DNA from: Felis catus
Taxonomy: Eukaryota
Reading direction: 5' to 3'
DNA length: 64,000 nucleotides
NCBI RefSeq assembly: GCF_018350175.1
Contig: NC_058368.1
Coordinates: 8,370,001-8,434,000 of the forward strand
The stretch's first letter is position 1; every line of letters begins with the position of its first letter. Below are positions 8,290 to 47,680 of this stretch, piece by piece. A program made the translations under genes and the position numbers. The notes under the pieces are model-generated. The model was not told the DNA's origin. It did no database searches and worked only from the letters and a program-made list of their open reading frames with translations.

Positions 8290-8987
8290 CTCTTAAAAAT
8301 CAAGGCATCATTGACATACAATATTTTCTGAGTTTCAGGTGCACGACATTGTGGTTTGATATTTTTATCCATCGCAAAATGATCACCTTGATACATCTAG
8401 CTGTCACCCTACCTGTCACCCTACAAAGTTAACACGATTATTGACTGTATTCTTCATGCTGTACATGAATCTCTGTGACTTAATTATTTTATAACTGGAA
8501 TTTTGTATTTCTTGATCCCCTTCACCCATTTTGTGTCCACCCCTCTCTCCCCTCCCCTCTGACAACCCCCGGTCTGTTCACTGTATCTATGAGTCTGATT
8601 TTGCTTTGTTTTGTTGCTTAGATTCCACATATGAGTGAAATCATATGGTTTTTGTCTTCCTCTGACTTATTTTGCTTAGTATAATACCTTCAGGATCCAA
8701 CCATGTTGTTGCAAGTGGCAAGATTCCATTCTTTTTATGGCTTCTTTATTCATTCCTCTTCTTTATCCATTCATCTATCAATGGATACTTGGGTTGTCTG
8801 TAAATCTTGGCTTTAGTAAATAATGCTGCAGTGAACATAGGGGAGCATATATCTTTTTGAATTAGTATTCTCATTTTCCTTGGATAGACACCCAGTAGTG
8901 GAGTTGTTGGATCATGTGGTAGTTCTATTTTTAAGTTTTTGAGGAACCTCCATACTGTTATTCATAGTAGCTGTATCAATTTACATT
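8290..8987 (-). mobile_element. L1 3' end (older carnivore L1)
   Basis: antisense L1 3'UTR/ORF2 end: gattccacatatgagtgaaatcatatgg, ttgaggaacctccatactg. Confidence 0.9.
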
Positions 8988-8992
8988 TTTTT

Positions 8993-9826
8993 GGTAAATA
9001 TTTAACATGTAAGCGTTAAACAACACACTACTGCACAAGCAACAGGCCGCATAAGAAATCAAACAGCAAATCAAAGTATGTCTCAAAACAAAAGAAAAAG
9101 AAAATACAACATTACAAAACCTATGCGATGCAGCAAAAGCAGATGTTAGAGTGAAATTAATGCTATAAATGCTTCTATTAAGAGAAACACGTTCAAATAA
9201 ACAACATTGCACCACAGCAACTGGAAAAAGAACAAACATAGCTGAAATGTAGTAGAGGAAGGCATAAAAAAGAAGAATCAGAAGTAAATAGGAGAGAGAC
9301 CAGAATAAACAATAACATGATATGGAAAGAAATGACCAGCTTTTCAAAAAAAATTTTTGGCAGTGCTGTAACTACATTAAGAAAAAGAGAGAAGACTCAA
9401 AAACCAAAATGAGAAATGGAAGAGAGAATACAACAGATAACCACAGAAATACATAGTGTGATAATAGATTACTTTAAACAATCATATACTAACAAACAAA
9501 TCAGATAACTTAGGGAAAAAATCAGCTAATTCTTAAAAGCTCACAAGTTACCATGATTGAATCATGAATCTGGACTCCAAGAAATAGGAAATATTCTTAG
9601 ACCAGTGGAAGTTAAATTAGAAATAAAAAAATCTTCCAGCCCAGAAAAGCCTAAGACCACATGGTTTCATTGGCGAGTTCTACCAAACATTAAAAAAAAA
9701 AAAAAATTGATGACGGTCTTTATCAGAATCTTACAAATAACAGAATAGGTGGAACTCATTCAAAATCTTTCCATGAGGCCAGTGCTACCCTGACACCAAA
9801 GTAAGATAAAAACAATATGAGAAGAA
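8993..9826 (+). mobile_element. L1 ORF2 internal fragment, sense orientation, heavily degraded
   Basis: A-rich; caaaacctatgcgatgcagcaaaagcag (NLWDAAKA-like), ccatgaggccagtgctaccctgacaccaaa (YEASITLIPK-like). Confidence 0.8.
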
Positions 9827-11330
9827 TAAAGTCTAGTTTGTCTGATATAAGTATCACTGTTCCAGCTCTCTTTTGACATCCGTTTGTGTGATGAATGTTT
9901 CTCCATCCTCTCACTTTCAATATGCAGGTGTCTTTAGGTCTAAAATGAGCCTCTTGGAAGCAGCACATAGATAGGTCTGGTTTTTTGTTAATCTACTCTG
10001 ACACTGTATGTCTTTTGATTGGAATGTTTAGTCCACTTACTTTCAAAGTAATTATTGATAGATAGGTATTTATTGCCATTTTATTACTTGTTTTGTCATT
10101 GTTTCTGGAGATTTTCTCTGATCCTTTCTTGTCTTTGTCACTTTTGGTCTCTCCTTTGCACTCAAGGAGTCCCCTTTAATATTTCTGGCTTAGTGGTCAT
10201 GACCTCCTTTAGTCTTTGTTTGGGAAACTCTTTATCTCTTCTATTCTGAATAGAGTACTCTTGGCTGCAGATTTTTTCCCATTCAGCACTTTGAACATAG
10301 CATGCCAGTCCTTTCTGGCTTGCCAAGTTTCTGTTGAGAAATCTCCAGCTAGCCTTATGGGTTTTCCCTTGTAAGTTAAGGACTTCTTCTGTCTCACAGC
10401 CTTTAAGATTTTTTTTCTTTGTGCCTCCTGGATCTCGATGTCTGTTTCCTCCCCCAAATTAGGGAAATTTTCTGCTATTATTTCTGGAAATAAAATTTTT
10501 TTGCCCCATTTTCTCTCTCTTCTTCTTCTGGGACTCCTATAATATGAATGTTATTATGTTTGATGGAGACACTGAGTTCTCCAAGTCTATTCTCGTGTTG
10601 CATAATTCTTTTGTTCGGCTTCTTTATTTTCCATTATTTTGTCTTCTGTATCACTTATTTGTTCTTCTGATTCTTCCAGCCTGCTGTTCATTGAAGCAAG
10701 CCTGTTTCTAGTCTTGTTTATTGTAGTCTTTCTTCATCTCTGATTCTTTTTTAACTCTTCTATCTTTATTGTAAGAGTCTCCCTGATGTCTTCTTTTCTC
10801 AAGCCCAGTGAGCATCCTTAGGGTTGTTTCTTTAAATTCTCCATCAGGTATGTTACTTATATCCATTTTGCTTAGATCTCTGGCTTTGGCCTTATTTTGT
10901 TCTTTCATTTGGGATAAATTCCTCCATCTTGGCATTTTTTATTAGTCTCTGCTTCCTTCTCTGTGTTACAAAAGCCAGTTATATCTTCTGCTCCTGAAAG
11001 CAATGGCTTAACGAAGAAGAGGGCATGTAGTGCCCAGGGCCTGGCACTTCAGGGAGTGTCTCTGGTGTGTGCTCTGCTGTTGTGTTTTGGTTGCTCTATC
11101 CTTCAGGCTAGTTGTCTGCAGAGGCTCTCCTTGCCTTCTATGGGAACTCTTTGGTCCCTGGCCTGAATGTGGTGAGTTTTAACTAGGTGTGTTCTGGTCT
11201 GCGTGTGAAATGAGACCCGACACCACGTCCACCAGAACTGAGGCCCTGCAGAACTCTCTGGCTGGGAATGTGGGCAGGGACCTTTGTTGGTCTTCTGGGG
11301 AGGGGGCATACCACACTGGGACTGAGGCAC
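9827..11330 (-). mobile_element. L1 5' part (5'UTR remnant, ORF1, endonuclease start), degraded
   Basis: track peptides CCFQEAHFRPKDT (EN), KILKAVRQKKSLTYKGKPIRLAGDFSTETWQARKDW (ORF1), MPRWRNLSQMKEQ (ORF1 N-term). Confidence 0.88.
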
Positions 11331-11361
11331 ACTTGATTGAGAAGGGCAGTCCCACCATGGG

Positions 11362-14120
11362 ACTGGTTTTGATTTGCATTTCCCTAATGATTAGTGGTGT
11401 TGATCATCTTTTCATATGCCTGTTGACTGTATGCCTTTTTTGGGAAGAATGTCCATTCAGATATTCTGTACATTTTTAAATTGGATTGTTTACTTTTTGT
11501 TACTGAGTTGTAGGAGTTCTTTGTATATTTTGAATGTTAACCCTTGTTTGATATATGACTTGCAAATGTCTTCTATTAAGTAGGCTGTCTCCTAATTTGT
11601 TGGTGGTTTCCTTCACCATGTGGATGCTTTTAATTAGATGCAATCTTATTTGCTTATTTCTGCATTTGTTTCCCTTGCCTTTGGAATCAAGTAAAAAAAA
11701 AAATTACTAAGATCAGTTACTTAGTAATCAAAAAACATTTAGTAATCAAAAATGACTAAGGTCAAGGAGTTAAGTGCCTATGTTTTCTTCAGAGTTTTAT
11801 GGTTTCACATCTTACATTCAAATCTTTGAGTTAATTTGTACATATGGCATAAGATAACAGTCTAGTCTTTCTTTTGCATGTAGCTCTCTAGTTTTCCTCA
11901 TACCATTCATTGAAGAGATTCTTTTCTCCATTGTGTATTCTTTTTTCCTTTGTTGAAAATTAAATGATCATATATACATGGGTTTATTTCTAGGCTGTCT
12001 CATCTTTTCCATTGATCTATGTGTCTGTTTTCATGCCAGTACCATACTGTTTTGATTAGTATAGCTTTATAGTATAATTTGAAATCGGGGAGCATGATAC
12101 CTTTGGCTTTGTTTTTCTTAAGATTGTTTTGCCTATTTGTGGTCTTTTTGTGGTTCCACAGAAATTTTAGAATTATATGTTCATTTTTTATGAAAAATGA
12201 CATTGGAATTTATCAAAATTCCCTATCAAGGGATTGCATTAAATGTATAGATTGCTTTGGGTAGTATGGACATTTGAACAATACTAATTGTTCTAGTCCA
12301 TGAGCACAGAGTATCTTTCCATTTATTTGTGTCTTCTTCAGTTTCTTTCATTAATGTCTTATAGTTTTTATTGTACAGGTCTTTCATATCCTTGGTTAAG
12401 TTTATTCCTATTTTTTTCTGATGCAATTGTAAATGGGATTATTTGCTTTTCTGATAGTTCATTATTAGTATATCAAAATTCAGATTTTTGCAAATTAACT
12501 ATGTATCTTGCAATTTCACTGAGTTCATTTATTAGTTTTAACGGTTTTTTTGGTGGAGTGTTCAGGATATCCTATATATAGTATTATATCTACAAATAGT
12601 GATAATCTTATTTCTTCCTTTCCAATTTGGATGCCTTTCCTTTCTTTTTCTTCCTACTTGCAGTGGCCAGGCCTTCTGGTAATATGTTGAATAAAAGTGA
12701 GGAGAGTGGGCATCCTTGTCTTGTTTCTGATTTTAGAGGAAAAGCTTTCAGCTTTTTACTGTTGAGTATATTAGCTGTGGACTTTTTCATACATGGCCTT
12801 TATAATGTTAAGGTACATTCTGTCTATACCTAGTTTGTTGAGGGTTTTTATCATAGATGAATGGATTTTGTCAAATGCTTTTTCTGCATCTGTTGAGATG
12901 ATCATATTATTTTCTTTATCTTTTATTTTGTTAATGTGGTATATCACACTGATTGGTTTGCAGATGTTGAACCATCCCTCTATCCCTGGAATAAATCCCA
13001 CGTGATCATGGTGTATGGTTCTCTAAATGTATTACTGAATTTGGTTTACGAATATTTTGTGGAAGGTTTCGCATCTGTGTTCATTGGGGATGTTGGTCTG
13101 TAATTTTCTTTTTTTGTGGTGTCCTTGTCTGTTTTTGATATCAGGGAAATGCTGGCTTTGTAAAATGAGTTTGGATGCTTTCTCTCTTCTTTTTTCTTCA
13201 AGAGTTTCCATCTTCTCTGAATGTTTGAGAAAATTCACCAGTGAAGTCATCTGGCCCTGGACTTTTGTTTGTTGGCAGGTTTTTGATTACTTACTCAGTC
13301 TCCTTACTAGTAACTGGTCTATTCAGATTGTCTATTTCTTCATGATTCAGTCTTGGAAGATGGTATGTTTCTAGGAATTTATCCATTTCTTTTAGGTTGT
13401 CCAGTTTGTTGATGTATAATTTTTCATAGCAGTCTCCTATGATTTTTTATATTTCTGTGGTATCAACTATAACTTCTCTTTCATTCTCACTTTACTTATT
13501 TGAGCCCTCTCTGTTTTCTGCTTGTTGAATCTAGCTAAAGGTTTGCTTATTTTGTGCGTTTTTTCAGTGAACCCATTCTTAGTTTCATTGATCTTTTCTA
13601 TTATCTTTTTAGTCTCTATTTCATTTATTTCTGCTCTCATCTTTATTATTTTCTTCCTTCTACTAACTTTGGGCTTTGTTTTTCTTTTTTTTTTATAGTT
13701 CCTTTAGGTATACAGTTAAATTGTTTGAGATTTTTCTTGTTCCTTAAGGTAGGCCTCTATTACTATGAACTTCCTTCTTAGAACCACTCTTGCTGCTTCC
13801 CACAGAGTTTGGTATGTGTTATTTCTGTTTTCATTTGTCTCTAGGTGTTTTTTGATTTCTCCTTTGGCTTATTCTATGACCCGGTAGTTTGTTCTGTAAC
13901 ATGTTGTTTAATCTCCATGCATTTGTGGTTTTTCTGGGTTTCTTCTTATAATTGATTTCTAGTTTCATACCATTGTAGTTGGAAAAGATGCTTTATATGA
14001 TGTAAATATTTTTCAATTTGTTAAGATTTGTTTTGTGACCTAACATGATCTATCCTGGAGAATATCCCATGTGCACTTGAGAAGAGTGTGTATTTTGCTG
14101 CTTTAGGATGAAATGTTATG
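11362..14120 (-). mobile_element. L1 ORF2 region, 5'-truncated, degraded
   Basis: peptides [51 protein letters not shown]; many stops and frameshifts. Confidence 0.92.
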
Positions 14121-16679
14121 TTTCCTATTATGGGACATTTAAGGCCTTAACAAGCTTGTTTTTATTAATTAATAAGATAAATTGATTATTGATTAGTGTA
14201 TTTTGGAGAATGTTACACATGTATCCCTAGTCTCTAGCACAGACTCTATAACATAGTGCACAATTAATATGCATTTTGGGTGACTGCATAAATGCATATA
14301 TTCCTGGAGATAATAGCATTTTATTTGTTTTCCAAATACTTCTTTTGACCTTTGATGGTTAACTAAATGGAAAATTTGCTGCCAAAGTTGATGAAAGTCA
14401 TTTGAAAGATTCAAAGGGAGTGTTAAGTCAGTAAAATAAGACACCTGGCTCTCCCAAAGGGAGAAGCTGGGAAGTCATTGTCTCTAATATCAGCTTGTTT
14501 GGAAAGCTGAACAGGCATAAAGTACGGCAGAAGTTCACAAAAGCCCACTTGGTCCAGAGCCACAGAGGAATACGGCACAAGCAAACAGCTGTACCAAAAA
14601 GCCAGCTCAACACAGAGCCTCTAGTAGGAAAACAAGTGGGCATAATACAGAGTCCATAGAGGAAACAGAAACTCAGCTTAACGGTCGTGCTGCCGTCAGC
14701 CAGGGACGCAAACTGATAGAATGAGAGCAAGCTCAGAAAACCCTGCGCTGCCTCAGGGATGCTTCTGTGCCGGTTCCACCGGGATCGGTTCTTCCCAGTT
14801 TCTCTCTCACTCGTTTTCATGTATGAACCCTTTGCTCCAGCCAGATTTCCCTGCTTATTTTCTAACCATGCCTCCTGCTGCCTCGACCCGGTTTTGCTCC
14901 CCATGCTCTTCTCTCCGGAATGCCATTTTCATTCTCCTCTCTATCCTTGATTTGTTTCCAAGACCCAGTTCAAGTTCTGCACCCTCTGCGAAACCTTTTC
15001 TAAATGTTTCCGCATCAGAAAATTTTAAGTGAGGCCTGCATCCTTCCCATTCCACCAAATTCAGGAAACGACGTGCAGTCATGGTCTATGAGCAGGACTT
15101 AAAGAGGACAGCAGTCAGCACATTGCATGCGGAATGCGAATCCCAGAGCGAGGAGGTGGGTAGAGGTAAGGAGAGCACCAGGAGGACTCCATTCTATAGA
15201 AACCTCAGGCATTTACAGAAAATTAACTGGAGAGAAATTCATCTTCTTATGGTCATCGAAGCGGGCATTAAGAACAGGAGAGCATCCCCCTTCTGTCCAG
15301 CAGGGACCCATTGGATGAATGCCCACAGGCAGGGACGTTTGGCCAGAGTCTGTGCACAGCACCCTGCCTTCTGGCTTAAAATCTGCGTGAAGGTTTTGGC
15401 AGTCCCTACCTGGACAAAGAAGGGATGGGAAGTGCTTTTAACTTGTCTTCAAACTCCAGACAAAAACGTAAATGCTAACCTAACATTAGGCAGAGGTTCC
15501 CCCATGCACAGGACGCCATTCCGGTTTTTGGATACAGGTGGAAATTCCTTGGGGTCCAGGTACAACATGGGAGGAATGTGTGGCTCTTGCTGTGCCCTGG
15601 TCTTGGCTCTAAGCTCAGGGAGTGAGGCTATGTTCTGCTAATTGGCCAGAGCCAACCCCACGGGGCTAAGGACTCCTGTCAGGATCACCAGGGACCCTCT
15701 TCCCAGAAAGTGTATCTGGGAGTTTAGCAATATTGGATAGAATTCCCCAAAGCAGTGGGTTTGATCACCTCTGTTGAGAAGAGCAATATTAAAAACATAA
15801 ATTGCCCAGAGGGTATGCTTAACATTAAAATGTGAAGCAGTGGTAGGGAGAAGAGACTTGTAAAAATGAAGTTTAATTTTGCTACAGAGAACTTTCATTC
15901 TTTGTGCGGCATTTCTTAAAGGATGTCTGAACCACCCCTGAGGTCGGTCTTTAGCTAGTTGATTCATTTTACAGCAAAATCTCAGACAGATACATTAAAA
16001 TTAAACCTCCTGCTGGGTGTTAAAATTTCATTATCAAACCTGTCCTTATTACAAGTACTTGTTTTCTATTCATATGAGACCACTGGGTAGAGAAAACTTA
16101 CCTTGATTTTTGTAATCAGAATATTCAGTTGCCTGTTTAATGTGGTTTCATTTAGTTTTGGATGTAAATCTCCCCGTTTTGTGTGCAGCCGGGTGTATCA
16201 GTTGCCAAAGAGGAGAGGAATATCGCTGTTAAATGCAATGATCATTTATTTGCAAGTTAAAACATATTCTGAAAAGGATGAGAGCTTATTCTTGCCTGAA
16301 GCTTGTTTGTTCTGCGAGAGCTGCGAGGTGCCTCTGAGGGTTGTTTCTGTGCTGTGTTTTTTCCTGTGTCTTAGCAGTAAGGTCTGTTCCTATTCCAGCA
16401 AACTCCTTTACTCATGTTGGTTCTGGGAGTAGAGGAAAGTGAGGAAATGAATCTGGAGTGGACCTGTGAGAAATAAGAAACCTGCAACACTTGTGTGTAA
16501 TTTACATGCAGGGCTGGTGATTCTGAAAGATTCTGAATTGTATTTTTAAATACCGTCGTGCGAGCGCATGCATTTGGATACTGACATTGATAGAAGTCAT
16601 CTTAGATGACCCAAATGTACCTGAAGCCCTGGGGTTGGTTCTGGTCTACAAGTAAGGAAATGAGACTACTTGTTTCTTT

Positions 16680-17017: not shown

Positions 17018-17559
17018 TTAAATAATTTGGAAAATATATTTTGAGTAACCATTATGCATCAGGTGCTCTGCGTCTGTCATGGTTGCAGAGATAAACGTGA
17101 TGTGTATAATACAGTGCTTGCCTTCCAGGTGCTTTGAGTCTACGAGGAGACACAGTGAGTAGCAGCTGTGGTACAGGTGAAAAGGGCTCTGAGCAGGGGC
17201 ATGACGTGCCTTTAGTTCTGGGGGCCCTTCTTAGAACTGTACATTCTAGAAAGAGAATCTGGTGGAGAAGTGAATGTTTATTTGCAAGAGGCTTGTGCAG
17301 GCGACGAGCCCATGGGAAGTGTGCGGGGCGAGGGAGCTCCTGAGAAGAGCCTGCGATCCATCGTTGGGCCTTGGGCCCTATTTCCCCAACGAGCCAGACT
17401 GCCGGTGACATCGTGCTCTGCCCCTCCAAGCGTCTTCTCCACACAGCAGCCAGGCGGGGCCTTTGGGAGCTCATTCAGACAGCATTGCTGCCCTGCTCAC
17501 AATTCTCCACCGGCTCCCATCACCCCAGTGCTTCGCCCCCTCGCTCCTCACGTGCCGAC

Positions 17560-17920
17560 CGCTGGCCTCCTTGCTGTTCCTCAGGCGTATCTGCCATCAT
17601 CCTGTCTCCGTTTGCCTGTGTCCCCTCTGCTTGCAGGACGCCCCCTGTGTGTGGTGTGCGGCTTGCTCCAGGGGGCCCTCGGAAGGGCGCTGTCTGCCCA
17701 CGCATCTGTAGCACCCCTGCACGCTCTGCCCTCTTTATTCTGACCTCTATCCTTCTGGACATCATCACTCCGTTACGTGGTCATTTGTTCGTCCGTCTCG
17801 ACTGCAGTGCAAACTCGGGGAGGAAGCCTTGTTCTCTGCTGTGTTCCGGCACCTAGAGTGGGGTCTGGCACATGGGAGACACTCAGTGAGTACCTGCTAG
17901 ATGAAAAAGTGAATGAAGGC
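17560..17920 (-). mobile_element. L2 3' fragment (approximate bounds)
   Basis: ggcctccttgctgttcctc ... cacctagagtggggtctggcacatgggagacactcagtgagtacctgctagatgaaaaagtgaatgaa. Confidence 0.6.
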
Positions 17921-18377
17921 AGTGGAGAAACATAGTTCGGGGATGGTAATTGGGAGCGTTGTCCTCGCTGGCTTGTGAAAGAGAAATCAAAATGGTCTTC
18001 TGTAAAATATATTAGTTCCTGAGCAACATACGTTCAGAGGATTTCTAAACTGTAGGAAAACATTTCCCTGCCAGGTATCTATGGACAGGCAGTGGCAGAT
18101 TATCGGAAATAGGTCTGATTTTGTGTTGTAATTAACACCTGTACTAAATGTTCTGTCGTTTCAAATATAGTACTTCATTTGGATTCAGTTGGAAGTTTGC
18201 ACAGTGGGAGAGAGAGGGAGGAGTTCAGTGTGTGTCTGTGTGCAGTGTAGTTTTAAAGGGTTAAAAAATTCCCATATAAATTATTTTCTTCTACTGATGT
18301 TGCATTTGAACATGCATTTGGTCATGAAGGCAGCAGCACGTTGACTGTGAAAACGATCTCTTGTCTTCTATGTTCCT

Positions 18378-18615
18378 GGGGCGCCTGGCTGGCTCAGCTG
18401 GTTCAGCATCTGACTCTTAATTTCGGCTCAGGTCATAATCTCATGGTTCTTGAGTCTGAGCCCTGCTTCCAGCCCCACGTTGAGCCCCGCCTTGGGCTCC
18501 ACGCTGGCAGCGTGGAGCCTGCTCGGGATTCTCTCTCCCTCTCTCTCTCTGCCCCTCCCCTACTCAGACATGTGCTCTCTCTCTTTCTCTAAACAAATAA
18601 ACGTTAAAAAAAAAA
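18378..18615 (+). mobile_element. Can-SINE flanked by a ~120-bp direct duplication
   Basis: ggggcgcctggctggctcagctgg head, CT body, A tail; flanks 18260-18378 and 18616-18736 are homologous. Confidence 0.93.
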
Positions 18616-19071
18616 GTTAAAAAATCCCATATATTTTCTTTTACTAATTATGCATTTGTTAAACTGTTTGAACATGCATTTGATCGTGAAGGCAGCAGCA
18701 CTTTGTGAAAACGATCTCTTGTTTTTTATGTTCCTGCAGGATATGTGGGGCCTCTTTTCTCATGGGCTGTGTCCAGAGTGGGTACCCTGGGGAGGCCCAT
18801 AAAATTCCTTTGAGGGTAGAGGATGGGACAGAAACAAAGCTTTTGTAATTTTGCTTAAAGGGTGGCCACACACAACTTCACTTGGTCTACTGTAGTGTTC
18901 TGGACTGAGATACTCAGGGGCAGCAGTGGGAGGTCACGTCTGGGCGTGGGGGAAGAGAGACCCCCCCACACCCTTGTCCCTTTTGCAGTCTGTGTGCAGC
19001 GTTAAGTAGATTTGCAGATTACATTATCTAGTTTTATTTATTTATTTTTTATTTAGTTTTACTTTTTTTTT

Positions 19072-19979
19072 AGTTGTTAAATTTTATTTAGCTTTATGGT
19101 TTTAAGAACTGCTTTAGGTTTACAGTAAAATTGAGAGACAGGTACAGATGTTTCCCAAATGTTCCCTTTCCTCACACACACATAGCGTCTCCTATTATCA
19201 GCATCCCCTACCAGAAGGGTACATTGTTACCAAGGATGAACCTACCCTGATACGTCATAATCGCCCAAAGCCCATTGTTAACCTTAAGGTTCACTCTTGG
19301 TGTAGATTCTGTGGGTTTGGACAAATGTGTAATGATGTATATCCATCAGTGTAATCTTAGAGTATTTTCACTGCCTGAAAAGTCCTCTGTGCTTTGCCTG
19401 TTTATCTCTCCTCCCACTTCTATGTGTGGCCACCACTGATCCTTTTACTGTACTGTACGCGGTATGTAGCCTTTTCAGATTGGCTTCTTTCACTCGGTGC
19501 ATATGAGGGCCTCCACCTCTTTTTCACGGCTTGGTAGTCCATTCGTTTCAAAGCTGAATAGTAATGTATTGTGTGGATGTCCCACAGTTTATCCATTCGC
19601 CTACTGAAGGACATCTTGGTTGCTTCCAGGTTTTGGCAGTTATGAATAAAGCTGCTATAAATATCTATGAGCAAGTTTTTGGGTGAATATAAGTTTTCAG
19701 TTCCTTTGGGTAAATACTAAGGACCATGACTGATGGATCATATGGTTAAAGTATGTTTAGTTGTATAAAAACCATTGAACTGTCTTCCAAAGTGGCTGTA
19801 TTATTTTGTATTCTTACCAGCAACGAATGAGAGAATTTCTATTTCCGTTGCTCCACATCCCTGATAGTATTTAGTATTGGCAGTGTTCTGGATTTGGGCC
19901 ATTCCAGTAGTGTTGAGTGGTATCTCATTGTTATTTTAATTTGCATTTCCCTGATTACATATTTTCATGAGAGCATCTT

Positions 19980-19980
<1 letters not shown>
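19072..19980 (-). mobile_element. ancient L1MC-type 3' end (probably carried here as L1 3' transduction cargo)
   Basis: L1MC-like 3'UTR: ttcactcttggtgtagattctgtgggtttggacaaatgtgtaatga, tgtagccttttcagattggcttctttcact. Confidence 0.8.

Positions 19981-19981
<1 letters not shown>

Positions 19982-20023
<42 letters not shown>
19982..20023. repeat. (TG)n microsatellite grading into (TA)n
   Basis: TG run followed by tatgtatatccatatatat. Confidence 0.97.
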
Positions 20024-20026
<3 letters not shown>

Positions 20027-20277
20027 ATATCCATATATATATTTTTTTCTGTCATTCTTTTTTTTAATATATGAAATTTATTGTCAAATTGGTTTCCATA
20101 CAACACCCAGTGCTCATCCCAAAAGATGCTGTCTTCAATACCCACCCCCCCCACCCCCATCAACCCTCAGTTTGTTCTCAGTTTTTAAGAGTCTCATGCT
20201 TTGGCTCTCTCCCACTCTAACCTCTTTTTTTTTTTTTTCCCTTCCCCTCCCCCATGGGTTTCTGTTAAGTTTCTAGG

Positions 20278-23200
20278 GATCCACATAGGAGTGAAAACAT
20301 GGTATCTGTCTTTCTCTGTATGGCTTATTTCACTTATCAACACACTCTCCAGTTCCATCCACGTTGCTACAAAGGGCCATATTTCATTCTTTCTCATTGC
20401 CACGTAGTACTCCATTGTGTATATAAACCACAATTTCTTTACCCATTCATCAGTTGGTGGACATTTAGGCTCTTTCTACAATTTGGCTATTGTTGAGAGT
20501 GCTGCTATAAACATTGGGGTACAAGTGCCCCTATGCATCAGTACTCCTGTATCCCTTGGGTAAATTCCTAGCAGTGCTACTGCTGGGTCATAGGGTAGGT
20601 CTATTTTTAATTTTTTGTGGAACCTCCACACTGTTTTCCAGAGCGGCTGCACCAGTTTGCATTCCCACCAACAGTGGGAATCCTCTCCGCATCCTCTCCA
20701 GTATCTGTAGTCTCCTGATTTGTTCATTTTGGCCACTGTGACTAGCATGAGGTGATATCTGAGTGTGGTTTTGATTTGTATTTCCCTGATGAGGACTGAC
20801 GTTGAGCATCTTTTCATGTGCCTGTTGGCCATCTGGATGTCTTCTTTAGATAAGTGTCTATTCATGTTTTCTGCCCATTTCTTCATTGGATTATTTGTTT
20901 TTCGGGTGTGGGGTTTGGTGAGCTCTTTATAGATTTTGGATACTAGCCCTTTGTCTGATATGTCATTTGCAAATATCTTTTCCCATTCTGTTGGTTGCCT
21001 TTTAGTTTTGTTGATTGTTTCCTTTGCTGTGCAGAAGCTTTTTATCTTCATGAGGTCCCAATAGTTCATTTTTGCTTTTAATTCCCTTGCCTTTGGGGAT
21101 GTGTCAAGTAAGAAATTGCTACGGCTAGGTCAGAGAGGTCTTTTCCTGCTTTCTCCTCTAGGGTTCTGATGGTTTCCTGTCTCACATTCAGGTCCTTTAT
21201 CCATTTTGAGTTTATTTTTGTGAATGGTGTGAGAAAGTGGTCTAGTTTCATTCTTCTGCATGTTGCTGTCCAGTTCTCCCAGCACCACTTGTTAAAGAGA
21301 CTGTCTTTTTTCCATTGGATATTATTTCCTGCTTTGTCAAAGATGAGTTGGCCATACTTTTGTGGGTCTAGTTCTGGGGTTTCTATTATGTTCCATTGGC
21401 CTATGTGTCTGTTTTTGTGCCAATACCATGCTGTCTTGATGATTACAGCTTCGTAGTAGAGGCTACAGTCTGGGATTGTGATGTCTCCTGCTTTGGTCTT
21501 CTTCTTCAAAATTACTTTGGCTATTTGGGGCCTTTTGTGGTTCCATATGAATTTTAGGATTGCTAGTTCTAGCTTTGAGAAGAATGCTGGTACAATTTTG
21601 ATTGGGATTGCATTGAATGTGTAGATAGCTTTGGGTAGTATTGACATTTTAACAATATTCTTCCAACCCAAGAGCATGGAATGTTTTTCCATTTCTTTGT
21701 GTCTTCTTCAGTTTCCTTCATAAGCTTCCTATAGTTTTCAGCATACAGATCTTGTACATCTTTGGTTAGATTTATTCCTAGGTATTTTATGCTCTTTGGT
21801 GCAATTGTGAATGGGATCAGTTTCTTTATTTGTCTTTCTGTTGCTTCATTGTTAGTGTATAAGAATGCAACTGATTTCTGTACATTGATTTTGTATCCTG
21901 CAACTTTGCTGAATTCCTGTATCAGTTCTAGCAGACTTTTGGTGGAGTCTATCGGATTTTCCATGTATAGTATCATGTCATCTGCAAAAAGTGAAAGCTT
22001 GACTTCATCTTTGCCAATTTTGGTGCCTTTGATTTCCTTTTGTTGTCTGATTGCTGATGCTAGAACTTCCAGCACTATGTTAAACAACAGCGGTGAGAGC
22101 GGACACCCCTATCATGTTCCTGATCTCAGGGGGAAAGCTCTCAGTTTTTCCCCATTGAGGATGATATTAGCTGTGGGCTTTTTATAAATGGCTTTTATGA
22201 TGTTTAAGTATGTTCCTTCTATCCCGACTTTCTCAAGGGTTTTTATTAAGAAAGGATGCTGAATTTTGTCAAATGCCTTTTCTGCATCAATTGACAGGAT
22301 CATATGGTTCTTATCTTTTCTTTTATTAATGTGATGTATCACGTTGATTGATTTGTGAATGTTGAACCAGCCCTGCATCCCAGGAATGAATCCCACTTGA
22401 TCATGGTGAATAATTCTTTTTATAAGCTGTTGAATTCGATTTGCTTGTATCTTATTGAGAATTTTTGCATCCATATTCATCAGGGATATTGGCCGGTAGT
22501 TCTCTTTTTTTACTGGGTCTCTGTCTGGTTTAGGAATCAAAGTAAAACTGGCTTGGCTTCATAGAATGAGTCTGGAAGTTTTCCTTCCCCTTCTATTTTT
22601 TGGAATAGCTTGAGAAGGATAGGTATTATCTCTGCTTTAAATGTCTGGTAGAATTCCCCAGGGAAGCCATCTGGTCCTGAACTCTTATTTGTTGGGAGAT
22701 TTTTTGATAACCGATTCAATTTTTTCACTGGTTATGGATCTGTTCAAGCTTTCTATTTCCTCCTGTTTGAGTTTTGGAGGAGTGTGGGTGTTTAGGAATT
22801 TGTCCATTTCTTCTAGGTTGTCCAGTTTGTTGGCATTTAATTTTTCATAGTATTCCCTGATAATTGCTTGTATTTCGGAGGGATTGGTTGTAATAATTCC
22901 ATTTTCATTCATGATTTTATCTATTTGGGTCATCTCCCTTTTCTTTTTGAGAAGCCTGGCTAGAGGTTTATCAATTTTGTTTATTTTTTCAAAAAACCAA
23001 CTCTTGGTTTCATTGATCTGCTCTATAGTTTTTTTAGATTCTATATTGTTTATTTCTGCTCCAATCTTTATTATTTCTCTTCTTCTGCTGGGTTTGGGGT
23101 GTCTTTGCTGCTCTGCTTGTATTTCCTTTAGGTGTGCTGTTAGATTTTGTATTTGGGATTTTTCTTGTTTCTTGAGATAGGCCTGGTTTGCAATGTATTT

Positions 23201-24089
23201 TCCTCTCAGGACTGCCTTCGCTGCATCCCAAAGCATTTGGATTGTTGCATTTTCATCTTCGTTTGTTTCCATATGTTTTTTAAATTTTTTCTCTAATTGC
23301 CTGGTTGACCCATTCATTCTTTAGTAGGGTGTTCTTTAACCTCTGTGGTTTTGGAGGTTTTCCAGACTTTTTCCTGTGGTTGATTTCAAGCTTCATAGCA
23401 TTGTGGTTGGAAAGTATGCATGGTATGATCTCAATTCCTGTATACTTATGAAGGGCTGTTTTGTGACCCAGTATGTCATCTGTCTTGGAGAATGTTCCAT
23501 GTGCACTCGAGAAGAAAGTATATTCTGTTGCTTTGGGATGCAGAGTTCTAAATATATCTGTCACGTCCATCTGATCCAATGTATCATTCAGGGTCCTTGT
23601 TTCTTTATTGACCGTGTGTCTAGATGATCTATCCATTGTTGTAAGTGGGGTATTAAAGTCCCCTGCAATTACCACATTCTTGTCAATAAGGTTGCTTATG
23701 TTTGTGAGTAATTGTTTTATGTATTTGGGGGCTCCCGTATTCGGCGCATAGATATTTATAATTGTTAGGTCTTCTTGATGGATAGACCCTGTAATTATTA
23801 TATAATTCCCTTCTTCATCTCTTGTTACAGCCTTTAATTTAAAGTCTAGTTTGTCTGATATAAGTATGGCTACTCCAGCTATCTTTTGACTTCCAGTAGC
23901 ATGATAAATAGTTCTCCATCCCCTCACTTTCAATCTGAAAGTGTCCTCAGGTCTAAAATGAGCCTCTTGTAGACAGCAAATAGATGGATCTTGTTTTTTT
24001 ATCCATTCTGATACCCTATGTCTTTTGGTTGGCGCATTTAGTCCATTTACATTCAGTGTTATTATAGAAAGATATGGGTTTAGAATCAT
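20278..24089 (-). pseudogene. L1 ORF2p remnant (APE endonuclease + reverse transcriptase), broken into about 8 ORF pieces
   Basis: MILNPYLSIITLNVNGLNAP (EN start), [33 protein letters not shown] (RT), [17 protein letters not shown] (Cys domain). Confidence 0.95.
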
Positions 24090-24139
24090 TGTGATGTCTG
24101 TAGGTTTCATGCTTGTAGCAATGTCTCTGGTACTTTGTC

Positions 24140-25032
24140 TCATAGGAACCCCTAAGGATCTCTTGTAGGGCTGGTTTAGTGGTGATGAATTCCTTCAGTT
24201 TTTGTTTGTTTGGGAAGACCTTTATCTCTCCTTCTATTCTAAATGACAGATTTGGTGGATAAAGGATTCTCGGCTGCATATTTTTTCTGTTCATCACATT
24301 GAAGATTTCCTGCCATTCCTTTCTGGCCTGCCAAGTTTCAGTAGAGATCCGTCACGAGTCTTATTGGTCTCCCTTTATATGTTAGAGCATGTTTATCGCT
24401 AGCTGCTTTCAGAATTTTCTCTTTATCCTTGTATTTTGCCAGTTTCACTATGATATGTTGTGCAGAAGATCGATTCAAGTTACGTCTGAAGGGAGTTCTC
24501 TGTGCCTCTTGGATTTCAATGCCTTTTTCCTTCCCCAGATCAGGGAAGTTCTCAGCTATTATTTCTTCAAGTACACCTTCAGCACCTTTCCCTCTCTCTT
24601 CCTCCTCTGGGATACCAATTATGCATATATTATTTCTCTTTAGTGCATCACTTAGGTCTCTAATCCTCCCCTCATACTCATGGATTTTTTTTTATCTCTC
24701 TTTTTCTCAGCTTCCTCATTTTCCATAATTTTATCTTCTAATTCACCTATTCTCTCCTCTGCCTCTTCAATCCGTGCTATGGCTGCCTCCATTTTATTTT
24801 GCACCTCATTTATAGCATTTTTTAGCTCCTCATGACCATTTCTTAGTCCCTTGATCTCTGTAGCAATAGATTCTCTGGTGTCCTCTATGCTTTTTTCAAG
24901 TCCAGCAATTAATTTTACAACTATTATTCTAAATTCTTGTTATGTTATATTGCTTAAATAGTTTTTGAGCAATTCGCTAGCTGTCGCTACTTCCTGGAGT
25001 TTCTTTTGAGGAGAATTCTTCTGTTTTGTCAT
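24140..25032 (-). pseudogene. L1 ORF1p remnant (frameshifted)
   Basis: ATG at 25032 (MTKQKNSPQKKLQ); C-terminal QPRILYPPNLSFRIEGEIKVFPNKQKLKEFITTKPALQEIL; no continuous ORF. Confidence 0.88.
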
Positions 25033-26504
25033 TTTGGATAGTCCCTGGGGTGGCGTGGAACTGCAGGGCACTTCCCCTGTGCTGTCTGGAGTAACTTGTG
25101 TTGGTGGGCGGGGCCACAGTCACACCTGATGTCTGCCCCTAGCCCACTACTGGGGCCACAGTCAGACTGGTGTGTGCCTTCTCTTCCCCTCTCCCAGGGG
25201 CAGGACTCACTGTGGAGTGGTGTGGCCCCTGCCTGGGCTGCTTGCACGCTGCCAGGCTTGTGGTGCCGCTTCGATGTGATCTCGCCAAGGGCATGTTAGC
25301 CAGGGTGGATCCTCAAGGTGCACAGGGGCGGGAGGGCCAGGCTCAGCTCGCTTTGCCGTGGGTGGTCCCCTGTGGGAGGGGCCCTGCAGCACCGGGAGGG
25401 GAGGAGGCAGGCCCGTGGGAGGGATGGATCCACAGAAGCATAGCATTGGGAGTTCGCGCAGTGCAAGCAAGTTCGATGTCGGGAACTGGTTCCCTTTGGG
25501 ATTCCGGCTGGGGTATGGGCGAGGGAGATGGCGCTTCCCAGTGCCTTTGTTCCCCACCGAGCTGAGCTCTGTCATCCGGGGCTCAACAACTCTCCCTCCC
25601 GTGTCCTCTCACCCTCCCCACTCTCCGAGAGCAGAGCTGTTCACTTTTACCATTCCAGATGTTAAGTCCCGCTGGCTGTCAGAACACACTCCGTCCGGCC
25701 CCTCCGCTTTGGCAAGCCAGACTCGGGGGCTCTGCCTTGCCGGGTGGGCTGGCCGCCCCTCCACCGCCCCGGCTCCCTCCCGCCAGTCCGTGGAGCGCAC
25801 ACCGCCTCTCCGCCCTTCCTACCCTCTTCCGTGGGCCTCTGGTCTGCGCTTGGCTCCGGAGAGTCCGTTCTGCTAGTCTTCCGGCAGTTTTCTGGGTTAT
25901 TTAGGCAGATGTGGGTGGAATCTAAGTGACCCGCGGGACGCAGTGAGCCCAGCGTCCTCCTATGCCACCATCTTCAAATGTTTTACATTATCTAGTTTTA
26001 ACTAAATTAACCTTCACAAAATAGATAAGTGGGCTAAAAACCAGAAATCAACCATTATACTAAGAAATGAAAGTGTAAATGAACATTAAGAAAACAGTAG
26101 AATTGATACCGTTTCTACCACTCCCTGTATGCGAATTTTCTTAGCTGAGTAAAAAAGTAGTGATAACCTAATCCTGTTGGACAAGAGATTGGCCCAGAAA
26201 TTCAAGATCACCAAGAAAATTATTCAAATGAGGATTTATAGCTGTTATTGCGACAGTGTAGTTTGGCCTAACTGGGTAGTGTGTCTAGTTACATTAGTTG
26301 CTGGTCGGAATACGTGTATACAGTTTATATACAGTGTATACGTGTATACAGTTATATACAGTGTAACTGTATATAATAGCATATGTATGTGTATATACAG
26401 TTTGTAAGTAAACAAGTATACACCTGTTGGGGGATGCCTGATCAAAGTGTCTTTCTCTTAGGGGTGTCCACCCAAGCACGTTTCCTGCCCACAGTTTAAG
26501 GGGC

Positions 26505-28970: not shown

Positions 28971-29392
28971 GCAGAACAAAGGACACTCGTGAGGAGGAAA
29001 GTTGTTCCCAGGCAGAACAACTTGGGGGGGGGTACAAATACAAGATAAGGATGTATAAACCGATTCCCCTCGATGAGAACCCCTGGAAAGTCGTCGTGTG
29101 CCCCTGTTTGGAGACTGCTGCCTTGCAAAGTCAGGCACGTCACACGCAGCGGGCACATGAAACGCCGGTCGAGTAAATGGGTGATGACTGAGTACGTACC
29201 ACCATCCCAGATGGCCAGAAACCCCCACTGAGCGCAATGTGTATGGAATCTGCTGAGCCCTGGGGCAGCAGCACAGAGCCGGACTGGACGTCTCCCAGGG
29301 CCGGCAGTTGGCAGGGCAGGTAAAGCCACAGGCAGGGCTGGAGGCGTGGAGGAAGCGGGGGCAGTAACAGCCGGCAGCTGCAGGCGGCTGCA

Positions 29393-30990
29393 CCCCCAGC
29401 TCCTCTGCGCCCCCCACCCTGCTGCGCCCCCGTACCCCATTGTGCCCCCCACTCCTCTGGGCCCCCCGTCCTGCTGCGCCCCCGTACCCCACTGTGTCCC
29501 CCACCCTGCTGCGCCCCCGTACCCCATTGTGCCCCCCACTCCTCTGGGCCCCCCGTCCTGCTGCGCCCCCGTACCCCACTGTGTCCCCCACCCTGCTGCG
29601 CCCCCGTACCCCATTGTGCCCCCCACTCCTCTGGGCCCCCCGTCCTGCTGCGCCCCCGTACCCCACTGTGTCCCCCACCCTGCTGCGCCCCCGTACCCCA
29701 TTGTGCCCCCCACTCCTCTGGGCCCCCCGTCCTGCTGCGCCCCCGTACCCCACTGTGTCCCCCACCCTGCTGCGCCCCCGTACCCCATTGTGCCCCCACT
29801 CCTCTGGGCCCCCCCACCCTGCTGTGCCTACGTACCCCACTGTGTCCCCCATTCCTCTGTGCTCCCCCACCCTGCTGCAACCCTGTACCCCACTGTGCCC
29901 CCCACTTCTCTGTGCCCCCCACCCTGCTGTGCCTACGTACCCCACTGTGCCCCCCACCCTGCTGCGCCCCCGTACCCCACTGTGTCCCCCACTCCTCTGC
30001 GCCCCCTCACCCTGCTGCGCCCCCATATCCCACTGTGTCCCCCACTCCTCTGTGCCCTCCACCCTGCTGTGCCCCCATACCCCACTGTGCCCCCCACCCT
30101 GCTGCACCCCTGTACCCCACTGTGCCCCCCACTTCTCTGTGCCCCCCCACCCTGCTGTGCCTACGTACCCCACTGTGCCCCCCACCCTGCTGCGCCCCCG
30201 TACCCCACTGTGTCCCCCACTCCTCTGCGCCCCCTCACCCTGCTGCACCTCTGTATCCCACTGTGTCCCCCACTCCTCTGCACCCCCTCACCCTGCTGCG
30301 CCCCCATACCCCACTGTGTCCCCCACTCCTCTGTGCCCTCCACCCTGCTGTGCCCCCATACCCCACTGTGCCCCCCACCCTGCTGCGCCTCCGTACCCCA
30401 CTGTGCCCCACTTCTCTGTGCCCCCCACCCTGCTGTGCCCCCCACCCTGCTGCGCCCCTGTACCCTACTGTGCCCCCCACTTCTCTGCGCCCCCACCCTG
30501 CTGTGCCCCCGTACCCCTCTGTGCCCCCCACTTCTCTGTGCCCCCCACCCTGCTGTGCCCCCCACCCTGCTGCGCCCCTGTACCCCACTGTGCCCCCCAC
30601 TTCTCTGCGCCCCCACCCTGCTGTGCCCCCGTACCCCCCTGTGCCCCCCACTTCTCTGTGCCCCCACCCTGCTGCACCCCTGTACCCCACGGTGCCCCCC
30701 CACTTCTCTGCGCCCCCCCACCCTGCTGTGCCCCCATACCCCACCGTGTCCCCCACTTCTCTGTGTCCCCCCACCTTGCTGTGCCCCCATACCCCAATGT
30801 GCCCCCACCCTGCCCCCACCCTGCTGCACCCCTGTAGCCCCCTGTGCCCCCACTTCTCTGTGCCCCCACCCTGCTGTGCCCCCGTACCCCACTGTGTCCC
30901 CCACTTCTCTGTGCCCCCCACCCTGCTGCGCCCCGTACCCCACTGTGTTCCCCACCCCTCTGCGCCCCCCCACCCTGCTGCACTCCCCAC
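29393..30990. repeat. GC-rich minisatellite/VNTR with higher-order structure
   Basis: subunits ccccaccctgctgYgccccYgtaccccactgtg (~35 bp) and ccccactYctctgYgc (~17 bp); periods of 87, 228 and 120 bp. Confidence 0.97.
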
Positions 30991-32027
30991 TCTGCCGCTG
31001 CTGATGTCTGCAGTTGAGTACATCTGCCTCCCGCCCTTGGAACTCTGCCGCCCATCCAGGGAAATGTCTTTGACAAATTTGTTTACAGAATATCAAATTG
31101 TGCATTTATTGGCTAGCTGACGAATCTGAAAATAGCCTGAGGAGGATTTATAACAGGGCTACTTTCATTGCTCACAGAACAGAGTTTCTCCCTGTAAAGA
31201 GCACCCCATTTGGCATCGAGGATTGCCTTCTGCCGTGGCACACACGTCCTGAACTTTAACCCACATGGAAGTGGAATGAGGGAGTTCAGAAACCACACAG
31301 GTGAAGGCGATGGAAGCAAAAGCAGACCCCAAACCCCAACCCGCGCTCTGGCAGAAGGAGACTCCTGTCGTTTCTAGACGGCTAACGGGGCGGGGCTGGG
31401 CGCGGCGGCGCCCACTGCCCACGTGTCCAGCGCACTTAGTTCTCACCGTGAACGCATCGGCTGGATGTTGTCGTCAAGTCCGTTTCACTGACGGGGAAGC
31501 CGAGACCCACGTAAAGCTGCTGAGCCCCACAGCTCTCGGAGGCACAGCTGACCCTGACCAGCCATTCTGGCTCCAGACGCACCTCCTCGGCCACTAAATC
31601 AGAACCTCTAAGCGGCCGAGTACGTGGGCCACCGACTCTTGAAGGAGGTGTGGATGTCTCTGAGGGGGCTGGTGGCCTGTTTGCCTGGCTTATCTGGGAG
31701 GGCAGGGCCTTGGGTACTGAGACAGGGCTACCTTTAATGTATAGCGATTAATACCGTCGCAGAGAGCCACCCTGGGTGTGGAATTGGGGGCTTCTCACCT
31801 GGGGTATAGAACCAAGGAGAACATTTGGGAAGGTGAAAGCTCTGAATGACCAAGACAAGCCTTCTTAAACTCGGAAGGTTCACTTTCCAACTAATAACCT
31901 GTTTGAAAATCTGAAAGATTAAAGCCGTACACGGTCTGTGAGCTTTTTGGAGGCAATAAAGATCATGGAGATAAGTTTTCTGGAAGGCGTCATGTGGGAA
32001 CAAAGTCGGCTCCTGAAAGAGAAGGCA

Positions 32028-34682: not shown

Positions 34683-36480
34683 AGTATGTGGTGTTTTAAG
34701 TTGTCCTTTATGGAGCCTTTATCAAGCCCAGGTGCGGAGCCGAGCCCTGTGCCGTGGTCGCATTTGCCCTTCACCCCGGTGCCCCTGTGAAATCTCATCC
34801 TGTGCACACTCAGCCTTTGCAGGCACTGTTGTTACACACGGGGAGAGGTGGGACGGGGACACAGCCTGTGCGTCTCACTCTTGGCGTTGTGCCCCTTGTA
34901 GCTCTGAATTCGGTGTTAGTGCCTCCATGTCACAGAGGGAGGAGCTGAGCCAGGGGGTCGGAACGCGGGTTGAACTTCACCCTGCATTGCCCTGATTCGG
35001 TGGTCAGTGCCTCAGGGCTGGGTCTGGTGTGGGGGGGGAGGGGCTGTGCGCTGCCCTTGGCCTTGTCCTGGGCTGGACGCCTGCAGGCCGTCCCTACAGT
35101 CGTCAAGCATGGCTGGATTCTTCACAGACACGCTGAACATACAGACTCTGGGGACCGTTCCGGGACGTCATCCCTCCAGCATAGTCATTTCTATGGTAAA
35201 ACGCATTTACAGACCCATTTGAAAGCCGGGCCCGTCGGGGTGGTGTTTTGCTTTCTAGGACTTGGTGTTCATTAGGCATATGCTGGCTTCCGGCAGGCCC
35301 GATGTGTATGGATGTCTGCCAACTTTCTGAACTATAGTAATTAAGGCTTTTATGCGTTAGCAAGACTCAAACGTAATGCGGAGTACAAGTAGCTACTGTT
35401 AGACTTAAGTCCTGAAGTCAAACTTCGTTTTCAGAAAACACACTCAATTTGGAAAGGCAGGGGGTAAATCATCCTGTAACCGATGTAAGGGAGACTGCGT
35501 TTCCCTAAGGAGTTGCACAGATCAGCAGCATACGTACAGAAAAGATCGGGTGTGGGCAACGTGCATGTTGCTTCAGGAGAAATGTTCCTGTGGGATGGTC
35601 AGGGCTCGTGGGAGCAGCCCGCTGATCAGGTGGGGAGAGAGGGCAGAATCCTTTCTTGTAACACGTTTCCCCTGAAGCTCCGTAAGAGGCAGACTTCTGG
35701 GTTATGTTTCAGAATTAATCTTGCTGATCAACGAACTCCATTCTGCCTACTTGTGTTGCAAAACCTTGAGCCTGGGGGGAAGGGGTGGGGGAAGGCAGAG
35801 GCTGGCGGCGGGATTTAACTGGCACTGAGCTGTGATCACTTGGACAAAGCGATGCAGATCTTTGACAGGATGGGTTTAGGGCTCCTGCCATCCGCAAGGA
35901 AAGCCTCCATCTGGAGACGCCATCAAAATAATACTTCTAGGTTTTATTGAGGGCCCTCCTCCCATAACCAAACACTGTTGTGTCTTCCGTCCAGATAACT
36001 ATTTTCACTTGCCGTGAAAACAAGCGAACACCTCGTTTTTCTCTTGGAGGAGAAATGAGTCAGCATTCCTTGCAGCCGTCCCTTTGCCAGCTTTTCACAG
36101 GCGTCGGGGAGTTTGATTGCTTCCTCCTAAAAGGATAGCATCTGAAAAGAGGAGAGCGGGGAACGCCTGAGGATTTATGTGCCAGCCCTTGAGCTGAGAG
36201 GCGAGAAGGAGAGGTTTGGAATAGGGATGTAGGTCTGGACACTTGGAGACGCCCCTCGTGAAAGCAGCCGAGAAACCAGGGTAATTGTGAGAGCGTGGGA
36301 CCCTTGACTCTGCGTGGGCTGCGCTGCCTTCAGTCCCAAGGAGAAAGCAAGCAGGAGAGAGAGCACCTTAGGGAAACATTGCCATGGGCTGCCCGTTTCG
36401 GCATAAAATGGGGCGTGTGCCTGGCTTGTCCCTGTGGCCCTAGGTTGCTGTTGGGGTCGACGGCCCCCTCCCCCCTGCTC

Positions 36481-47290: not shown

Positions 47291-47503
47291 GTAAGTTAAA
47301 AAGAAATACTCCGTCATCATCTCCCACCAATACGGTCATCGTCTCCTTGGTTTTGTTGCCTTCTAGAGAGTTCGTGAAAGAAAGGACATGTTAACGTCAG
47401 AAAAGTAGGAACATTGTAATCTCAGACTGTCAGTCCTCTAGAGATGAATCGAATTCAGCTTTATAAAGAGTTCACTATGTCTTTTTTGAAAAAAAAATTC
47501 ACC

Positions 47504-47680
47504 AGGACACCTGGGTGGCTCAGTCGGTTGAGCATCCAACTTCTGCTCAGGTCATGATCTCATTGCTCGTGAGTTTAGGCCCCACATCAGTCTCGCTGCT
47601 GTCAGCACAGAGCCCCACTTGGGACCCTCTGTCCCCTTTCTGTGTCTCTCCTCCCTCAAAAAGAAACATTAAAAAAAAAA
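47504..47680 (+). mobile_element. Can-SINE (first of a head-to-tail pair)
   Basis: ggacacctgggtggctcagtcggttgag; preceded by aaaattcacc. Confidence 0.92.

What the first reader, a model, noticed from the sequence alone, without database searches (positions are those of the whole stretch)
19019..25999. Full-length L1 with a ~1-kb 3' transduction: one 7-kb insertion bounded by a perfect 17-bp TSD
Seen: ttacattatctagtttt occurs at 19019-19035 and again at 25983-25999. On the L1 sense (-) strand the order is gtt|aaaactagataatgtaa (canonical TT/AAAA endonuclease site), 7 extra nt, the complete L1 5' end, the L1 body, AATAAA and only A8 (20058-20065). Then come ~985 bp of foreign sequence ((TA)/(CA)n plus an ancient L1MC-like 3' end, 20057 to 19072), a second AATAAA (19083-19088), a longer degenerate A-tail (19036-19071) and the TSD. 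I see no TSD next to the L1's own A8. Established: L1 transcripts read through their weak poly(A) signal and mobilise downstream flank. Inference: a source L1 elsewhere borrowed the poly(A) signal of an old L1MC downstream of it. A repeat annotator would report these as two unrelated L1s. The cargo is a tag that should identify the source element.
Basis: partly seen in the sequence, partly recalled or inferred. Interest (0 to 1): 0.7.

Follow-up and report, generated by a model that had tools for sequence, protein, structure and literature searches.

The report
Old L1 copy carrying hitchhiked DNA
A full-length, now broken LINE-1 jumping gene landed here together with about 1 kb of an older LINE-1 remnant, most likely copied from its parent site, which is a well-known by-product of LINE-1 jumping.

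Summary
An exact 17-nt repeat (18 with one tail-side base) brackets 19036-25982; shuffled probes never exceed 14 nt. Inside, on the minus strand: endonuclease-type site, 7 extra nt, a 5.9-kb L1 (ORF1, endonuclease and RT domains; 4 stops, at least 7 frameshifts), AATAAA, A8, 986 bp of a much older L1 3' end, AATAAA, A-rich tail. There is no TSD at the A8, and old-L1 sequence does not resume beyond the young L1's 5' end. Stop-codon decay gives about 2% for the L1 and about 15% for the cargo (p=0.005); a perfect TSD fits the younger age. Best reading (0.82): a partnered L1 3' transduction ending at the 3' end of an old L1 downstream of the source. Donor copy and empty site could not be tested (no genome held; no runs listed), and the L1MC label is recalled, not tested. 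The process is textbook, is reported in dog, and termination in a downstream truncated L1 is in print for human tumours (PMC13009371). An ordinary member of a known kind; its small value is as an all-repeat transduction that pipelines discard.

The parts
25983..25999 (-). 5' copy of the target-site duplication, preceded on the minus strand by TT (TT/AAAA endonuclease-type site)
25976..25982 (-). 7 nt between TSD and the recognisable L1 5' end; 5 of them are the reverse complement of the TSD's end (possible fold-back templating, or untemplated or 5'-carried bases)
   Evidence: origin inferred
25033..25975 (-). L1 5' UTR, 63.5% GC, 45 CpG, observed/expected 0.47
24140..25032 (-). ORF1, broken: one stop (24942), frameshifts near 24685 and 24345; coiled-coil part, Pfam Transposase_22 (8.6e-24) and Tnp_22_dsRBD (2.8e-24). 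Lower end approximate
20281..24089 (-). ORF2, broken: frame changes near 23285, 22705, 22550, 21655 and 21122, a 3-codon gap against dog ORF2p near 20683, stops at 22114, 22111 and 20478; Exo_endo_phos and RVT_1 domains; 67-70% identical to a canine ORF2p (P0096)
20058..20280 (-). L1 3' UTR with AATAAA at 20082-20077 and A8 at 20065-20058; no TSD beside it
19982..20057 (-). start of cargo: about 30 nt AT-rich junction and a 45-nt CA/TG array; homology of the junction to L1 is not significant
19471..19985 (-). cargo: end of ORF2 of a much older L1, same strand (residues 1091-1263 of P0096 at 34-38% identity, 4 stops; 61% nucleotide identity to the young L1)
19072..19470 (-). cargo: 3' UTR of the old L1 (L1MC1/2-like by recall only), with AATAAA at 19088-19083
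   Evidence: subfamily label recalled
19036..19071 (-). distal A-rich tail, 28 of 36 A
19019..19035 (-). 3' copy of the target-site duplication

Best explanation
A partnered L1 3' transduction. A source L1 elsewhere in the genome sat upstream of, or inside, an old same-strand L1 remnant. RNA polymerase II passed the source's own AATAAA and short A tract, transcribed about 1 kb more and was polyadenylated at the A-rich 3' end of the old L1. ORF2p nicked this site at TT/AAAA, primed on the new tail and copied the whole 6.9-kb RNA to its 5' end; repair left a 17-bp TSD. The copy then decayed neutrally (about 2%). Shown: the anatomy, one TSD round both parts, the age contrast. Inferred: the source locus, read-through, and which hexamer was used.
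For: Exact 17/18-nt flanking repeat far above chance; TT/AAAA at the 5' copy and an A-rich tail against the 3' copy; no TSD at the A8; AATAAA 11 nt before the distal tail, within the 10-30 nt window reported for transduction ends (PMC13009371, passages). Old-L1 ORF2 does not resume beyond the young L1's 5' end: score 77 against shuffle mean 80.5, 206 of 300 shuffles as high; positive control 224 against a maximum of 126. Stops: 4 of 1528 codons in the young L1, 4 of 171 in the cargo, Fisher p=0.005; divergence 2.2% (0.6-5.7) and 15% (4-38). Chance of a perfect 17-mer is 0.51 at 2% per copy and 0.008 at 15%. None of 5 other, older L1 pieces in the window shows a TSD-like pair above score 8 (random pairs: mode 5; 1 pair scored over 10, a SINE-SINE pair), against 18 here. 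9 of 19 SINEs scanned keep a perfect repeat of 10 nt or more, one of them only an A run. Precedent: transductions ending at the signal of a truncated downstream L1 (PMC13009371, section 10); confirmed human flanks of 50-1600 bp (PMC3024322, passages).
Against: No donor copy and no empty site seen: no genome held, no runs listed, no donor inside the window (best non-self match of the cargo's L1 part 61-64%). The decay intervals are wide: at the cargo's lower bound of 4% a perfect TSD still has probability 0.26. The distal AATAAA lies in a degenerate A-rich array that holds several such hexamers, so it is weak evidence. 986 bp is at the long end of one human catalogue (8-997 bp, median 63; method-limited; PMC9311842, passages). 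The 7 extra 5' nt are unexplained.
Confidence: 0.82

Rival explanations
1. Nested insertion in place. The old L1 fragment was already here with its own 17-bp TSD; the young L1 later inserted at or near the fragment's 5' end without a TSD of its own (endonuclease-independent or with a target deletion).
For: The cargo is a natural 5'-truncated L1 with its own 3' end and A-rich tail, which is what an ordinary old insertion looks like. The 7 extra nt could be its leftover 5' end.
Against: Needs three uncommon things together: a TSD unchanged over the cargo's age (0.008 at 15%, 0.04 at 10%), an insertion within a few bases of the old 5' end, and no new TSD. None of 5 other older L1 pieces keeps a TSD (their ends were set roughly). 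No old-L1 sequence on the far side of the young L1.
Confidence: 0.06
2. Chimera of two RNAs. Reverse transcription began on an unrelated polyadenylated RNA ending in the old L1 (for example a gene's 3' UTR) and switched to an L1 RNA at its A tail, or the two RNAs were joined first.
For: Gives the same TSD, site, tail and orientation. L1 chimeras by template switching or RNA ligation are described (bioRxiv 10.1101/2025.02.02.635956, passages). The A8 lies exactly at the junction.
Against: In the passages seen, chimeras carry the foreign RNA at the 5' end of L1, not 3' of a complete L1 that keeps its own signal and A tract. Read-through is far commoner (about 15% of full-length human L1s as quoted in PMC13141329; about 25% in PMC13009371).
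Confidence: 0.05
3. DNA-level capture after insertion. A plain TSD-L1-polyA-TSD insertion later took the 1-kb segment into its tail by break repair or ectopic gene conversion, using A-rich homology at the distal end.
For: A-rich sequence lies at both ends of the cargo (A8 and the distal tail); the tail region is a degenerate array.
Against: The cargo ends at the natural 3' end of an L1 with AATAAA at processing distance; no second duplication or junction filler is seen.
Confidence: 0.05
4. Assembly misjoin through the L1 or the CA array.
For: Both are repeats at which assemblies break; no reads could be laid.
Against: A misjoin to another locus would not leave the same 17-mer at both outer ends.
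Confidence: 0.02

Closest known systems
L1 3' transduction, partnered type (concept from Moran 1999, Goodier 2000, Pickeral 2000, seen here only as cited in PMC13141329, PMC7980453 and PMC13756887)
   Same: L1 with its own signal and A tract, downstream foreign DNA, second signal and tail, one TSD, TT/AAAA site.
   Different: Decayed germline copy in a non-dog carnivore (felid by recalled repeat types); donor not identified.
Transductions from human source L1 9q31.3-1 ending at the signal of a truncated L1 about 2.4 kb downstream (PMC13009371, section 10 read)
   Same: The transcript borrows the polyadenylation signal of another, truncated L1 downstream; easy to misassign.
   Different: Those four are somatic orphan transductions without source sequence; this one is germline, keeps the whole source L1, and the borrowed L1 is far older than the carrier.
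Canine L1_Cf 3' transductions (PMC7980453, PMC13141329, PMC13756887; passages read)
   Same: Carnivore L1, longer elements enriched, usable as a parent tag; often parentless.
   Different: Those are dimorphic and needed at least 25 bp of unmasked sequence; this cargo is almost wholly repeat and would probably be discarded (inferred; RepeatMasker not run).
RNA/L1 chimeric insertions (bioRxiv 10.1101/2025.02.02.635956; passages read)
   Same: Two components inside one TSD with an endonuclease motif and tail.
   Different: There the foreign part is 5' of L1; here it is 3'.

Membership tests
L1 3' transduction (partnered) | L1 ending in its own polyadenylation signal and A tract | tested here: met
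   AATAAA 20082-20077, A8 20065-20058
L1 3' transduction (partnered) | Sequence foreign to the carrier between its A tract and the final tail | tested here: met
   986 bp, 61% identical to the carrier over the shared ORF2 part
L1 3' transduction (partnered) | One TSD round both parts and none at the internal A tract | tested here: met
   17/18 nt exact; best pair at the A8 11 of 15
L1 3' transduction (partnered) | L1 endonuclease-type target (TT/AAAA) and terminal A tail | tested here: met
L1 3' transduction (partnered) | Polyadenylation signal 10-30 nt before the terminal tail | tested here: inconclusive
   AATAAA 19088-19083 is placed right, but the region is a degenerate A-rich array with 5 such hexamers
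L1 3' transduction (partnered) | Near-identical donor copy elsewhere, without the new tail | not testable with these tools
   No genome held; no runs listed; none in the window
L1 3' transduction (partnered) | Empty orthologous site with one copy of the TSD and no cargo | not testable with these tools
Full-length mammalian L1 | GC/CpG-rich 5' UTR, ORF1, ORF2 with endonuclease and RT, 3' UTR, about 6 kb | tested here: met
   5918 bp; Pfam PF02994, PF17490, PF03372, PF00078
Retrotransposition-competent L1 | Both ORFs intact | tested here: not met
   4 stops and at least 7 frameshifts
L1MC subfamily (cargo) | Subfamily-diagnostic 3' UTR | not testable with these tools
   No repeat library here; the label is recalled. 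Shown only: an old L1 ORF2 end on the same strand

The most novel reading that the evidence does not exclude
The source was a prolific feliform L1 whose read-through 3' end, donated by an ancient L1, was inherited by many daughters: a transduction lineage in which a roughly 7-kb young-plus-ancient L1 hybrid spread as a unit and re-seeded copies of a long-dead L1 family's 3' end across the genome. Such copies would look ancient by divergence from consensus while being young insertions, and repeat-masked pipelines would miss them. Nothing here shows siblings and nothing excludes them.
Probability: 0.07. Interest if true: 0.5.

Novelty: new member of a known kind. Interest (0 to 1): 0.2.

Why it matters
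Little by itself: one more decayed L1 with a 3' tag. Its use is practical. (1) The cargo can identify the source locus of a feliform L1 lineage. (2) It is a clean example of a transduction made of old repeat: annotators would call two unrelated L1s and date the cargo's arrival by its family age, and dog pipelines drop candidates without 25 bp of unmasked sequence, a filter whose authors say removes about 40% of eligible cases (PMC13141329, passages). (3) The insertion is a possible presence/absence marker in feliform phylogeny.

Tried and rejected
Whole-genome search for the donor: no genome is held. Sequencing runs for the left flank (17100-19035, DNA, library word PACBIO): none was listed, which is no evidence; so no reads or contigs were laid. 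Exact 32-nt pattern from the L1 3' end: 0 matches in metagenome contigs and 0 in viral contigs. ORF2 endonuclease relatives: 8 loci in metagenome contigs (40-74% identity) and 1 in viral contigs (27%), none close enough to date this copy or define its 5' end; not analysed further. Protein search: best hit 82%, most 62-68%, mainly canine; no same-subfamily reference. Earlier findings of this scan: nothing in 3 of 3 answered look-ups. The first stop-codon count used wrong ORF1 frames and was discarded; one search is the corrected one, with segment edges at the frameshifts left out. The idea that old-L1 homology runs right up to the A8 was tested and is not significant (21% and 47% of random L1 windows score as high). 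SINE identity to a young SINE was tried as an age scale for TSD decay and rejected, because it mixes subfamily with age. Literature: searches (listings only) showed no paper on felid L1 transductions; the library lacks most subscription journals, and PMC156586 (Szak 2003) is not held. No supplements were read; those of the canine and human transduction papers may list further repeat-only cases.

Full report
What is there. The window is non-coding-looking carnivore DNA rich in tRNA-derived SINEs; felid by my recall of the SINE and L1 types, not by a test. An exact 17-nt repeat stands at 19019-19035 and 25983-25999, extendable by one base to 18. In 2000 shuffles of the 60 nt upstream of the L1, the longest exact match to 18900-20100 never passed 14; 8 of 3528 real probes reached 18 or more and were not inspected. 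On the minus strand the 5' copy follows TT and starts with AAAA, the L1 endonuclease-type site, and the 3' copy follows an A-rich tail (28 of 36 A).

The carrier. From 25975 to 20058 lies a 5918-bp L1: a 5' UTR of 63.5% GC, ORF1 from 25032 with Pfam Transposase_22 and Tnp_22_dsRBD, and ORF2 from 24089 with endonuclease and RT domains, 67-70% identical to a canine ORF2p over nearly its full length. It is dead: ORF1 has one stop and two frameshifts, ORF2 three stops and five frame changes. It ends in AATAAA and A8. No TSD lies beside the A8 (best pair 11 of 15). Seven nt separate the TSD from the recognisable 5' end; five of them are the reverse complement of the TSD's end, which may be fold-back templating or chance.

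The cargo. The 986 bp from 20057 to 19072 hold a CA array, the last 170 or so codons of an L1 ORF2 at 34-38% identity to the canine protein, and a 3' UTR unlike the carrier's. It is thus an old L1 3' end on the same strand. An AATAAA at 19088-19083 stands 11 nt before the tail, but the stretch is a degenerate A-rich array with five such hexamers. There is no donor in the window: the best non-self matches of its L1 part are 61-64%.

One insertion or two? Three internal tests. (a) If the young L1 had landed inside a resident old L1, ORF2 sequence should resume beyond 26000. It does not: score 77, shuffle mean 80.5, 206 of 300 shuffles as high; the positive control scores 224 against a maximum of 126. 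(b) Age. Stops number 4 of 1528 codons in the carrier and 4 of 171 in the cargo (Fisher p=0.005), about 2.2% (0.6-5.7) and 15% (4-38) divergence under an assumed mutation model, using each copy's own codons as proxy and leaving out frameshift edges. A perfect 17-mer has probability 0.51 at 2% per copy, 0.04 at 10% and 0.008 at 15%, but still 0.26 at 4%. The TSD therefore fits the carrier's age better; the ratio is about 60 at the point estimates and only about 2 at the cargo's lower bound. (c) Calibration. None of 5 other older L1 pieces in the window shows a TSD-like pair above score 8, within the range of random pairs, against 18 here (ends set roughly; the one random pair above 10 is SINE against SINE). 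9 of 19 SINEs keep a perfect repeat of 10 nt or more, one only an A run, so perfect TSDs are normal here for carnivore-age insertions. The nested reading also needs an insertion within a few bases of the old 5' end and no TSD of its own.

Mechanism. Best reading (0.82): read-through of a source L1 into a downstream old L1, polyadenylation at that element's A-rich end, and target-primed reverse transcription of the whole RNA here. The anatomy is shown; the source locus and read-through are inferred from established L1 biology. Rivals: nested insertion in place (0.06), two-RNA chimera (0.05), later DNA-level capture into the tail (0.05), misassembly (0.02; unlikely since both outer ends carry the TSD).

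What could not be done. No genome is held and the one run search listed none, so neither donor nor empty site was seen. Metagenome and viral collections gave no close L1 copy. Look-ups of earlier findings were empty.

Comparison. 3' transduction is routine. PMC13141329 (passages) maps it in about 1.8% of dimorphic dog L1s, quotes about 15% for full-length human L1s, and discards candidates with under 25 bp of unmasked sequence. PMC7980453 (passages) found 17 of 18 dog transductions parentless. PMC13009371 (passages and section 10) finds a signal 10-30 nt before 274 of 349 ends and reports four insertions ending at the signal of a truncated L1 2.4 kb downstream of the source: the borrowed-signal idea is in print, there as somatic orphans. 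PMC3024322 (passages) gives the confirmation criteria and lengths of 50-1600 bp; PMC9311842 (passages) gives 8-997 bp. PMC13756887 (passages) notes that tails shorten with age, which lessens the weight of the short A8. The RNA/L1 chimeras in the passages of bioRxiv 10.1101/2025.02.02.635956 carry the foreign part 5' of L1. The listings showed no felid L1 transduction paper; that is a limited library. No supplements were read.

Verdict. It works like a partnered 3' transduction and meets the four structural criteria that could be tested cleanly; the signal criterion is inconclusive and the two comparative criteria are untested. New member of a known kind; interest 0.2. The boldest open reading, a lineage of hybrid daughters re-seeding an ancient L1 end, has probability about 0.07.

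Noticed in passing
window 18260-18378 and 18618-18737, round the SINE at 18378-18617: A direct duplication of about 120 bp brackets a SINE exactly: 98 matches, 9 mismatches and several gaps. Both copies begin with TT/AAAAA, the left ends at the SINE's first base and the right starts after its A tail. It looks like a SINE insertion with an unusually long TSD, or a SINE at the seam of an older tandem duplication. Longer-than-usual TSDs are mentioned in PMC13756887 (passage).
   Followed up: partly
window 19036-19071 (minus strand): The distal tail holds a stretch resembling the target site itself (about 10 nt like the TT/AAAA site and the start of the TSD) and a 10-mer repeated at about 19092 and 19056; possibly slippage or abortive priming, possibly chance in A-rich DNA.
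   Followed up: no
window 29387-31000: A C-rich minisatellite of 1.6 kb, about 70% GC, units of about 17/35/52/87 nt, with five near-perfect 87-nt copies at 29411-29851.
   Followed up: no
window 8290-14120: A cluster of older L1 pieces in both orientations: minus-strand 3' end 8290-8995, plus-strand ORF2 piece 9016-9700, a minus-strand 5' portion with ORF1 and the start of ORF2 at 9828 to about 11360, and a minus-strand ORF2 body 11362-14116; nested or rearranged.
   Followed up: no
window 34777-34889 and 36590-36706: A 115-bp direct duplication at 79% identity, 1.8 kb apart, not a SINE.
   Followed up: no
window 47500-47960: Two SINEs head to tail; the second appears to sit in the first one's A tail and ends in a long ATAA array.
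   Followed up: no
window 3540-3800 and 16100-16330: Repeat-free stretches that by eye resemble conserved non-coding elements; untested.
   Followed up: no
window 26310-26420: A self-complementary TA/CA-rich low-complexity array about 310 bp beyond the 5' TSD.
   Followed up: no
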